IMG/VR virus record: IMGVR_UViG_2695420685_000016
Location: 1 to 20,790 of that record
Length of the DNA stretch: 20,790 bases
Source of the DNA: a virus
Lineage: Duplodnaviria > Heunggongvirae > Uroviricota > Caudoviricetes
Reading direction: 5' to 3' (one strand)
Position numbers and translations under genes: made by a program. The notes beneath the pieces are model-generated. The model worked only from the letters and a program-made list of their open reading frames with translations. It was not told the DNA's origin and ran no database searches. How positions within the stretch are numbered: the first letter of the stretch is position 1; each line of letters starts with the position of its first letter. Positions 12,328 through 13,149 of the stretch are shown here, in pieces.

Positions 12328-13149
12328 TTACCTAGTTACCTTTTTTAACTGCCGCTCAGCCCATGCTTCTTCAATATCAAACCGGGTCACCAGCGCATCA
12401 TAGAATTTCTTAACTGTTTTTTCCCATGACGCGCGTGTTATCTGGTTTGTCACCTCGCATATAGCATTAAATACCTCCGTTGATGGTAGTCTTTCATAGC
12501 CACGACCACCACAACGCTGGCAGTCTCTGATAACAGGCATACCACGTTTTACCGACTCTTCACGGTGAATGGCGACACCACGCCCACGGCAATCCTTACA
12601 GGCGGTGGAAACCTCACCCTTTCCGCCACACTCCGGACAGGCAACTTTTACCACCTCCCTGACTTTTTTCCATTCTTCCCAGTAAGACGGATACACACCT
12701 TTCGTACACTTTGCCCATACCGGCGGCTTACCATCCGGATACTGGACCTTGTTTGTAAAAACTACGCTTTCAATAAATTTTTCCCCATAGCAACAAGGGC
12801 ACTGCTTTTTACTCGCTGCGCTGCGGGCATAATCCTCAAAAGCTTACGAAGCCATAATGCGCATCACTACCGGTTTTATTTCTGCCGGAAGTTTTCTCAA
12901 CGCCGCCACACGATCGCACCGACTGAGTGCATAATCTGCCAGTAATTCTGTTGCCCGCGCCCTGTCATTCATACTGATGCCCATTTTCCCCAGGAACGCA
13001 GAAAACCCCATCTCAGCCCGATTCTGTGTCATGCCCTGCGCGGCCATCACATCAGTGATACTCAGCGCATCTTTTGACGTTGAGGCCGATGCATCGGTCA
13101 GGCAAGGGGATTTTGGGGAGTAGTATTTCGGTAAATCTTCCAGTTTCAT
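12328..13149 (-). pseudogene. Q: Antiterminator Q, apparently interrupted by an in-frame TAA (12844-12846)
   Basis: ORF 12844..13149 (MKLEDLPKYYSPKSP...DVMAAQGM...) and the downstream reading frame are in the same phase; translation continues straight after the stop into a CxxC...CxxC zinc-finger region ending ...YDALV...KKVTR; the listed downstream ORF begins at GTG 12696 and there is no ATG between the stop and it. Confidence 0.6.

What the first reader, a model, noticed from the sequence alone, without database searches (positions are those of the whole stretch)
12328..13149. Antiterminator Q appears split by an in-frame ochre codon
The N-terminal Q-like ORF (12844..13149) ends in TAA at 12844-12846, and the same frame continues straight into a zinc-finger C-terminal region. 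Both segments look like parts of one Q protein of about 270 aa. If real, the prophage cannot antiterminate at pR' and is locked out of late expression despite an intact-looking head and lysis module. The alternative is that the C-terminal domain is made separately from the GTG at 12696.
Basis: partly seen in the sequence, partly recalled or inferred. Interest (0 to 1): 0.6.

Follow-up and report, generated by a model that had tools for sequence, protein, structure and literature searches.

The report
Nonsense-mutated Q antiterminator gene in prophage
A single base change has put a stop codon in the middle of the late-gene switch (antiterminator Q) of a lambda-like prophage of E. coli, which is an ordinary step in prophage decay and not a new kind of gene arrangement.

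Summary
On the minus strand, a 101-codon ORF (13149..12844) ends in TAA at 12846..12844. The same frame then runs 171 more codons to the stop at 12330..12328.

The nearest complete E. coli genome is identical over 1001 nt except at window base 12844. It has TAC (Tyr102) there and one 273-aa "antitermination protein" gene.

The TAA allele is rare:
- None of 1,837 complete genomes that hold this segment carries it.
- None of 82 metagenome contigs carries it; all read TAC or TAT.
- It does recur in two other draft assemblies, so it is probably real and inherited.

The protein is a Q-lambda homologue (PF03589; PDB 7UBM, E = 5e-40) with a 66-residue Cys-rich insert in the zinc-ribbon arm. Truncation at residue 102 removes the arm and the helix-turn-helix motif.

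The late promoter, the pause element, the terminator, the lysis genes and the head genes are intact. However, an IS21-family element interrupts tail gene gp17 at the left end of the window.

The GTG at 12696 has no properly spaced ribosome-binding site.

Verdict: this is a plain nonsense pseudogene in a decaying Qin-like prophage.

The parts
12844..13149 (-). N-terminal fragment ORF of the Q antiterminator gene (101 codons plus TAA). By alignment with Q-lambda it holds the torus-forming N-terminal segment and the first helices of the body.
   Evidence: PF03589 61.9 bits; aligns to Q-lambda residues 1-101; domain limits from PMC9388147
12844..12846 (-). Ochre codon TAA at codon 102. The mutated base is 12844 (minus strand A against C in relatives; plus strand T against G). 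The ancestral codon is Tyr (TAC or TAT).
   Evidence: sole difference in 1001 nt from NZ_CP038857.1; 0 of 1,837 genomes and 0 of 82 metagenome contigs carry A; 68 carry C and 14 carry T
12328..12843 (-). Remainder of the Q reading frame, now downstream of the stop. It covers codons 103-273 plus the natural stop at 12330..12328. It encodes the end of body part 1, the Cys-rich insert, the zinc-ribbon arm (C184, C187, C210, C213) and the C-terminal helix-turn-helix part.
   Evidence: PF03589 109.4 bits and a sub-threshold DnaJ_CXXCXGXG match
12328..12696 (-). Mechanical 122-aa ORF from GTG 12696 (codon 152 of Q), probably not translated. The Shine-Dalgarno-like AAAGG abuts the start codon.
12295..12322 (-). 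Late promoter (pR'-like): -35 TTGATT at 12322..12317 and -10 TAAATT at 12300..12295. The presumed Q-binding element lies in the spacer.
   Evidence: motif positions; same layout as lambda pR' (sequence); identical in the intact-Q strain L001 and in phage mEp460_ev081. The promoter role is inferred by analogy.
12283..12288 (-). -10-like element AACGAT followed by GGG. It sits at the same distance from the -10 hexamer as the sigma-dependent pause element of lambda pR'.
   Evidence: function inferred from lambda (PMC9388147)
12221..12247 (-). Intrinsic terminator (tR'-like): 7-bp G+C-rich stem followed by a T run.
12109..12184 (-). tRNA with anticodon CAT, annotated tRNA-Ile in relatives. It is the first gene downstream of the terminator.
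11931..12007 (-). tRNA-Arg (TCT)
8303..9928 (-). Lysis cassette (holin, YdfR, lysozyme, Rz-type lysis protein). All are full length and 99-100% identical to those of an intact relative.
   Evidence: against the annotation
330..7452 (-). Packaging and head genes: HNH, small and large terminase, portal, prohead protease, major capsid, connector, head closure and gp10. All are full length.
1..122 (.). End of an IS21-family element (IS100kyp-type, istB end). It abuts tail-completion gene gp17, of which only codons 1-74 of 114 are present, and is a second lesion in the prophage.

Best explanation
This is a Q-lambda-family late-gene antiterminator gene of a Qin-like lambdoid prophage, inactivated by one transversion. 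Codon 102 changed from TAC (Tyr) to TAA; on the plus strand base 12844 changed from G to T.

Translation stops after residue 101. The product keeps the N-terminal segment that in Q-lambda refolds into the RNA-exit-channel torus, plus the first helices of the body. It lacks the rest of the four-helix body, the zinc-ribbon arm and the helix-turn-helix motif. In Q-lambda these missing parts bind the Q-binding element, the RNAP zinc-binding domain and sigma region 4.

Without them Q cannot load onto RNA polymerase paused at the late promoter. Transcripts from the pR'-like promoter (12322..12295) should therefore stop at the terminator (12247..12221). The tRNAs, lysis genes and head genes downstream should stay silent after induction, unless Q of the same specificity comes from another prophage.

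Shown here: the stop codon, its single-base origin, its rarity, its presence in three assemblies, the family assignment and the intact cis elements and late genes. Inferred: loss of antitermination and the phenotype of the prophage.
For: Origin of the stop:
- Over 1001 nt the only difference from NZ_CP038857.1 is base 12844, and that genome has one 273-aa CDS, WP_001761875.1.
- Single 822-nt CDSs also occur in strain 55989 and in NZ_CM136154.1.
- The exact 273-aa Tyr102 sequence was seen on 329 contigs.
- 65 of 72 metagenome copies that span the gene are uninterrupted 273-codon ORFs.
- Isolated phages carry full-length orthologues: mEp460_ev081, vB_EcoS-813R8, vB_EcoS-640R1, Evi, HK225 and mEp237.

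Rarity and reality of the allele:
- Codon 102 is Tyr in 82 of 82 metagenome contigs (68 TAC, 14 TAT). No complete genome matches the 81-mer that holds TAA.
- The TAA allele is 822/822 nt identical in GCA_966507045.1 and GCA_001286305.1. The latter differs by one base elsewhere in 3393 nt, so it is a separate isolate.

Family and domains:
- PF03589 gives E = 8.5e-55. Q-lambda (7UBM) gives E = 5e-40 and aligns across the stop, with lambda F102 opposite Y102.
- Q-lambda domain limits and contacts come from PMC9388147.

Consequence:
- A Q-deletion lysogen of a lambdoid Stx phage does not transcribe late genes and is rescued in trans (PMC6328086).
- The cis elements and the late genes are intact.
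- No usable restart codon follows the stop.
Against: - No reads were available, so a consensus error cannot be formally excluded. GCA_966507045.1 is identical over 6306 nt and may be a re-assembly of the same reads.
- Loss of function is inferred from Q-lambda (39% identity), not measured.
- The rest of this draft genome was not visible. A second Q of the same specificity, or an ochre suppressor, could mask the defect.
- Some read-through of the tR'-like terminator may occur without Q.
Confidence: 0.9

Rival explanations
1. The TAA is a sequencing or assembly error. The strain really has TAC or TAT and an intact Q.
For: The allele is absent from 1,837 complete genomes that hold the segment and from 82 metagenome contigs. 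The window is a short-read draft contig. Base 306 of the gene is a C/T polymorphic site at which many draft contigs break, so it is a graph branch point.
Against: The same base is present in three assemblies with different contig structures (17,436, 20,790 and 3,393 nt). One of them differs at another base and so comes from other reads. Neither known variant at this site (C or T) is A, so a mis-resolved bubble would not produce A.
Confidence: 0.05
2. Q is made as two polypeptides, a 101-aa N part and a C part started at GTG 12696. They work together or separately, so antitermination is retained.
For: A 122-aa ORF exists and gene callers have annotated it in one assembly. Each half matches PF03589 on its own.
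Against: No homologue is organised this way by design. The split forms found elsewhere have different, unrelated lesions (K150*, C116*, frameshifts). GTG 12696 has only an abutting Shine-Dalgarno-like AAAGG (-3.4 kcal/mol at spacing 0). Codons 102-151 would be lost, including the end of body part 1 and the first CxxC. In Q-lambda the body is one four-helix bundle built from residues 61-113 and 153-207.
Confidence: 0.02
3. The stop is leaky, through ochre suppression or read-through. Enough full-length Q is made for late expression.
For: Only one codon is affected and everything downstream is in frame and unmutated.
Against: The context is UAA-G. The two phage tRNAs have anticodons CAT and TCT and are not suppressors. 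Classical lambda Q nonsense mutants do not grow in non-suppressing hosts (established knowledge, not tested here).
Confidence: 0.03

Closest known systems
Bacteriophage lambda Q (PDB 4MO1, 7UBJ-7UBN; Pfam PF03589 Antiterm)
   Same: Homologous over residues 1-113 and 182-273 (39% identity overall, E = 5e-40). The four zinc-ribbon Cys residues are conserved (C184, C187, C210, C213 against lambda C118, C121, C144, C147). The gene lies directly upstream of a promoter with TAAATT, an AACGAT-GGG pause element at the same spacing, and a terminator.
   Different: There is a 66-residue insert with two extra CxxC motifs (CPCC, CPECGGKG) in the arm, and the spacer sequence that should hold the Q-binding element differs. 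Here the gene is also cut by a stop at codon 102.
Intact 273-aa orthologues: E. coli WP_001761875.1 (strain PigCaeca_2), and the Q of phages mEp460_ev081, vB_EcoS-813R8 and vB_EcoS-640R1
   Same: WP_001761875.1 is identical at every residue except 102. The phage proteins are 98.5% identical. The neighbours are the same (DUF968, RusA, Q, tRNA-Ile, tRNA-Arg), and the promoter-terminator region is nearly the same.
   Different: They have Tyr at codon 102 and are uninterrupted.
QuuQ / YdfT of the K-12 cryptic prophage Qin
   Same: It has the same family, the same multi-CxxC architecture and the same genomic setting (ydfU/DUF968 upstream; dicB, ydfA-C, hokD, rem and YdfR-type lysis genes nearby).
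   Different: It is only 40% identical, is 250 aa long, and is an intact ORF in K-12.
Classical lambda Q nonsense (amber) mutants, and engineered Q deletions in Stx prophages
   Same: The lesion is of the same kind (premature stop or loss of Q) and the expected phenotype is the same: no late transcription, rescuable in trans (PMC6328086; lambda genetics from established knowledge).
   Different: This one arose naturally and is ochre, not amber. It sits in a prophage that also carries an IS insertion in a tail gene.

Membership tests
Q-lambda family antiterminator (Pfam PF03589) | Profile match above the curated threshold | tested here: met
   183.3 bits against a cut-off of 26.7 on the joined sequence. 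Each fragment also passes, at 61.9 and 109.4 bits.
Q-lambda family antiterminator (Pfam PF03589) | Sequence homology to the solved Q-lambda structure over the N-terminal torus segment, the body and the C-terminal helix-turn-helix part | tested here: met
   7UBM E = 5.3e-40, aligned 1-113 to 1-113 and 182-273 to 116-207.
Q-lambda family antiterminator (Pfam PF03589) | Four Cys ligands of the zinc ribbon | tested here: met
   C184, C187, C210 and C213 align with lambda C118, C121, C144 and C147. They are encoded downstream of the stop.
Q-lambda family antiterminator (Pfam PF03589) | All domains encoded in one uninterrupted polypeptide | tested here: not met
   TAA at codon 102. The locus is therefore a pseudogene of this family and not a functional member.
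Q-lambda family antiterminator (Pfam PF03589) | Gene placed just upstream of a late promoter with a sigma-dependent pause element and a terminator | tested here: met
   TTGATT, 16 nt, TAAATT, 6 nt, AACGAT-GGG, then a hairpin with a T run at 12247..12221. The layout matches lambda pR' and is conserved in phage mEp460_ev081. This rests on sequence motifs only.
Q-lambda family antiterminator (Pfam PF03589) | Antitermination activity at its own qut site | not testable with these tools
   This needs in vivo or in vitro transcription assays.
Q21 and other non-lambda Q families | Sequence similarity to the solved Q21 structures | tested here: not met
   The PDB search at E <= 1 returned only Q-lambda chains and unrelated small zinc proteins, and no Q21 entry.
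Nonsense pseudogene (derived, recent) | Single-base difference from an intact orthologue, with the rest of the frame unmutated | tested here: met
   There is 1 difference in 1001 nt, at the third base of codon 102.
Nonsense pseudogene (derived, recent) | The allele is rare while the sense codon is general | tested here: met
   No identical 81-mer in 1,837 complete genomes that hold the segment. 0 of 82 metagenome contigs carry it; 68 read TAC and 14 read TAT. No hit among the GTDB species representatives.
Nonsense pseudogene (derived, recent) | The base call is supported independently of this assembly | tested here: inconclusive
   The same allele occurs in GCA_966507045.1 (possibly the same isolate) and in GCA_001286305.1 (1 other difference in 3393 nt). 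Reads were not inspected.

The most novel reading that the evidence does not exclude
The Y102* allele might be kept by selection in this (probably enterotoxigenic) E. coli lineage and not be neutral decay. Two versions are possible. It could be a domestication step that blocks lysis while keeping prophage cargo such as iss, hokD/sok and the tRNAs. Or the retained 101-aa fragment, which holds the RNA-exit-channel torus segment, could act on RNA polymerase or interfere with the Q of incoming phages.
Probability: 0.04. Interest if true: 0.4.

Novelty: already known. Interest (0 to 1): 0.1.

Why it matters
Annotation: the two ORFs at 12328..13149 should be recorded as one pseudogene, not as two genes or as a "partial" protein.

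Biology: this prophage is very probably unable to switch on its own lysis and virion genes. It also carries an IS in a tail gene. It is best seen as a cryptic element on the way to the state of Qin in K-12.

No open question is touched. The practical value is as a worked example that a single point mutation can disable a prophage whose structural genes still look intact. That matters for tools that score prophages as "intact" from gene content alone.

Tried and rejected
1. The MAFFT alignment of the region downstream of Q with lambda pR'-tR' misplaced the promoter. I located the motifs directly instead.
2. The consensus promoter scan did not call the pR'-like promoter, which matches only 8 of 12 positions. 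It did flag a TTGCGA-17-TATTAT site at 12222..12194, between the terminator and the first tRNA. I did not follow this up.
3. Exact look-up of the 101-aa product suggested it was widespread (223 index blocks). Most of these are contigs that end at nt 302-305 of the gene, not nonsense alleles. The break point is explained by the C/T polymorphism at nt 306.
I replaced them with a pattern that has N at the variable base.
5. One literature search returned nothing. A search for earlier reports of natural Q nonsense alleles gave only general prophage papers.
6. Separate expression from GTG 12696, or from GTG 12654, was rejected because of the Shine-Dalgarno spacing.
7. A suppressor role for the two phage tRNAs was rejected on their anticodons.
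8. I did not identify the strain behind GCA_001277535.1, and I could not see its other contigs.

Full report
**1. The observation**

On the minus strand, an ATG at 13149 opens a 101-codon ORF that ends MRIMAS-TAA, with the stop at 12846..12844. The same frame continues without another stop for 171 codons (AFEDYARSAASKKQCPCC ... LKKVTR) to TAA at 12330..12328. The first in-frame start codon after the stop is the GTG at 12696, which gives the mechanical 122-aa ORF.

**2. Where the window comes from**

An exact-protein look-up shows that the window is the whole 20,790-nt contig CYAQ01000063.1 of the draft E. coli assembly GCA_001277535.1. The best whole-window matches among complete genomes are about 98% identical. 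They are Qin-like lambdoid prophages with HK97-type head genes, and several are in O25 strains.

**3. The stop is a single-base change in an otherwise intact gene**

- A 1001-nt query around the gene hits 2,499 of 5,426 complete E. coli genomes. The best hits are 99.9% identical.
- Against NZ_CP038857.1 the only difference is window base 12844. The minus strand reads TAA here and TAC (Tyr102) there. That genome annotates one 822-nt CDS, the antitermination protein WP_001761875.1.
- The same single CDS is annotated in strain 55989 and in NZ_CM136154.1.
- The exact 273-aa Tyr102 protein has been seen on 329 contigs.

**4. How common the allele is**

- No complete genome holds the 81-mer centred on the TAA. 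The best of 1,839 matching records has one mismatch.
- A 35-mer carrying the TAA is absent from the GTDB species representatives and from the metagenome collection.
- The same pattern with N at the variable base finds 82 metagenome contigs, 68 with C and 14 with T. Codon 102 is therefore always Tyr.
- Of 72 contigs that span the gene, 65 have an uninterrupted 273-codon ORF. The others carry unrelated frameshifts or stops, several of them on very low-coverage contigs.

**5. Is the stop real?**

The 822-nt gene with TAA is identical in two other assemblies.
- GCA_966507045.1 has 6306 of 6306 nt identical flanks. It may be the same isolate, or even the same reads assembled differently.
- GCA_001286305.1 (contig CYFU01000115.1) has one difference elsewhere in 3393 nt, so it is an independent data set.

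Neither natural variant at this site (C or T) is A, so a mis-resolved assembly bubble would not create the stop. I take the mutation as real and inherited in a small clone. Reads were not available, and I leave about 5% for an error.

A caution applies to database users. The 101-aa product looks widespread in the protein index, but the other contigs inspected simply end at nt 302-305 of the gene (L007-L013). This break point is explained by the C/T polymorphism at nt 306.

**6. What the gene is**

- The joined protein matches Pfam PF03589 (Antiterm) at 8.5e-55 and the PHROG family "anti-termination protein Q-like" at 1e-110.
- Its best solved relative is Q of phage lambda (7UBM, 7UBN, 4MO1) at E = 5e-40. 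Residues 1-113 align with lambda 1-113 and residues 182-273 with lambda 116-207.
- The alignment runs straight through codon 102, where lambda has Phe102.
- The 66 extra residues form a Cys-rich insert (CPCC, CPECGGKG). Together with the lambda-equivalent CKDCRGRG and CQRCGGRG motifs, this gives the weak DnaJ-CXXCXGXG match.
- No Q21 structure is hit.
- K-12 QuuQ/YdfT has the same architecture but is only 40% identical.
- Isolated phages carry uninterrupted orthologues. mEp460_ev081, vB_EcoS-813R8 and vB_EcoS-640R1 are 98.5% identical; Evi, HK225 and mEp237 also have full-length versions.

**7. What the truncation removes**

According to the Q-lambda structures (PMC9388147):
- Residues 1-44 fold into the torus in the RNA-exit channel.
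- Residues 61-113 plus 153-207 form one four-helix body that contains the helix-turn-helix motif.
- Residues 114-152 form the zinc-ribbon arm.
- The body and arm bind the Q-binding element. The zinc ribbon contacts the RNAP zinc-binding domain and the arm tip contacts sigma region 4.

A product ending at residue 101 keeps the torus segment and part of the body. It loses every DNA-binding element and most RNAP contacts. It should not load onto the paused polymerase. This step is inferred by homology and was not tested.

**8. The cis elements and the late genes**

Downstream of the gene lie, in order:
- TTGATT (12322..12317), 16 nt, TAAATT (12300..12295).
- After 6 nt, AACGAT followed by GGG (12288..12283). 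This is the same arrangement as the lambda pR' -10 hexamer and its sigma-dependent pause element.
- A G+C-rich hairpin with a T run (12247..12221).
- tRNA(CAT) and tRNA-Arg(TCT).

This stretch is identical in the intact-Q strain. It differs at only a few bases from phage mEp460_ev081.

All annotated late genes of a close relative are present at full length and at 99-100% protein identity. They are holin, YdfR, lysozyme, Rz, HNH, both terminase subunits, portal, protease, capsid, connector, head closure and gp10.

**9. A second lesion**

The first 122 nt of the window are the end of an IS21-family element (IS100kyp type). They are 100% identical to thousands of copies. They abut tail-completion gene gp17, of which only codons 1-74 of 114 remain in the window. 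No complete genome has this junction. The prophage is therefore already damaged in its tail module, which fits ordinary decay.

**10. Alternatives**

- Separate translation of the C part. GTG 12696 has only AAAGG directly abutting the start codon (-3.4 kcal/mol). GTG 12654 likewise has GGGAG at spacing 0. Real genes in the window have spaced sites. The product would lack codons 102-151. Split forms found elsewhere have different lesions, so no conserved two-gene design exists.
- Suppression. The phage tRNAs are not suppressors.
- Trans-complementation. This cannot be excluded, because up to four places per genome match this gene in complete genomes and the rest of this draft genome was not visible. 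A Q deletion in a lambdoid Stx prophage abolishes late expression and is rescued from a plasmid (PMC6328086).

**11. Verdict**

This is a recent, clone-specific nonsense pseudogene (Y102*, TAC to TAA) of a Q-lambda-family antiterminator in a decaying Qin-like prophage. The kind of event is well known and the interest is low.

Noticed in passing
window 1-122 (junction at about 122/123): This is the end of an IS21-family element (IS100kyp type, istB end). It abuts tail-completion gene gp17, which is present only to codon 74 of 114. No complete E. coli genome has this junction.
   Followed up: partly
nt 302-306 of the Q gene (window about 12844-12848); loci L007-L013: Many public draft contigs end exactly here, so most "101-aa partial antitermination protein" entries are contig ends and not the nonsense allele. 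Base 306 is a synonymous C/T polymorphism (68 C, 14 T in metagenome contigs). It would create an assembly-graph branch where two copies coexist. Phage records vB_EcoS-716R1 and vB_EcoS-733R4 start about 27 nt before codon 101.
   Followed up: partly
L015, L017, L018, L061, L088, L065 (homologous Q genes elsewhere): The same gene carries other, independent lesions in other samples: K150*, C116*, a -1 frameshift in a T5 run at nt 389, a deletion in an A run at nt 490 and a deletion at nt 733. Some are on contigs with 2-4x coverage and may be errors. PHROG families phrog_25523 (166 aa) and phrog_19003 (114 aa) look like the two products of such split genes.
   Followed up: partly
window 12194-12222 (-): A sigma-70-like site (TTGCGA, 17 nt, TATTAT) lies between the tR'-like terminator and the first tRNA gene. 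If active, it would let the two phage tRNAs be expressed without Q.
   Followed up: no
window 11045-11234 (-) and 15174-15349 (-): There are Rfam matches to the sRNA STnc100 (132 bits) in the region between the tRNAs and the holin gene, and to the sok antitoxin RNA next to hokD (112 bits).
   Followed up: no
window 18988-19741: The immunity region differs from that of the closest prophages. It has a 108-aa HTH_17-like ORF on the minus strand and a 139-aa HTH_3 repressor-like ORF on the plus strand, in place of the Cro and LexA-family pair of NZ_CM136154.1.
   Followed up: no
window 12328-13149 (-), protein level: The 87-position Pfam model PF03589 matches both halves of the protein (residues 24-101 and 178-265).
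   Followed up: no
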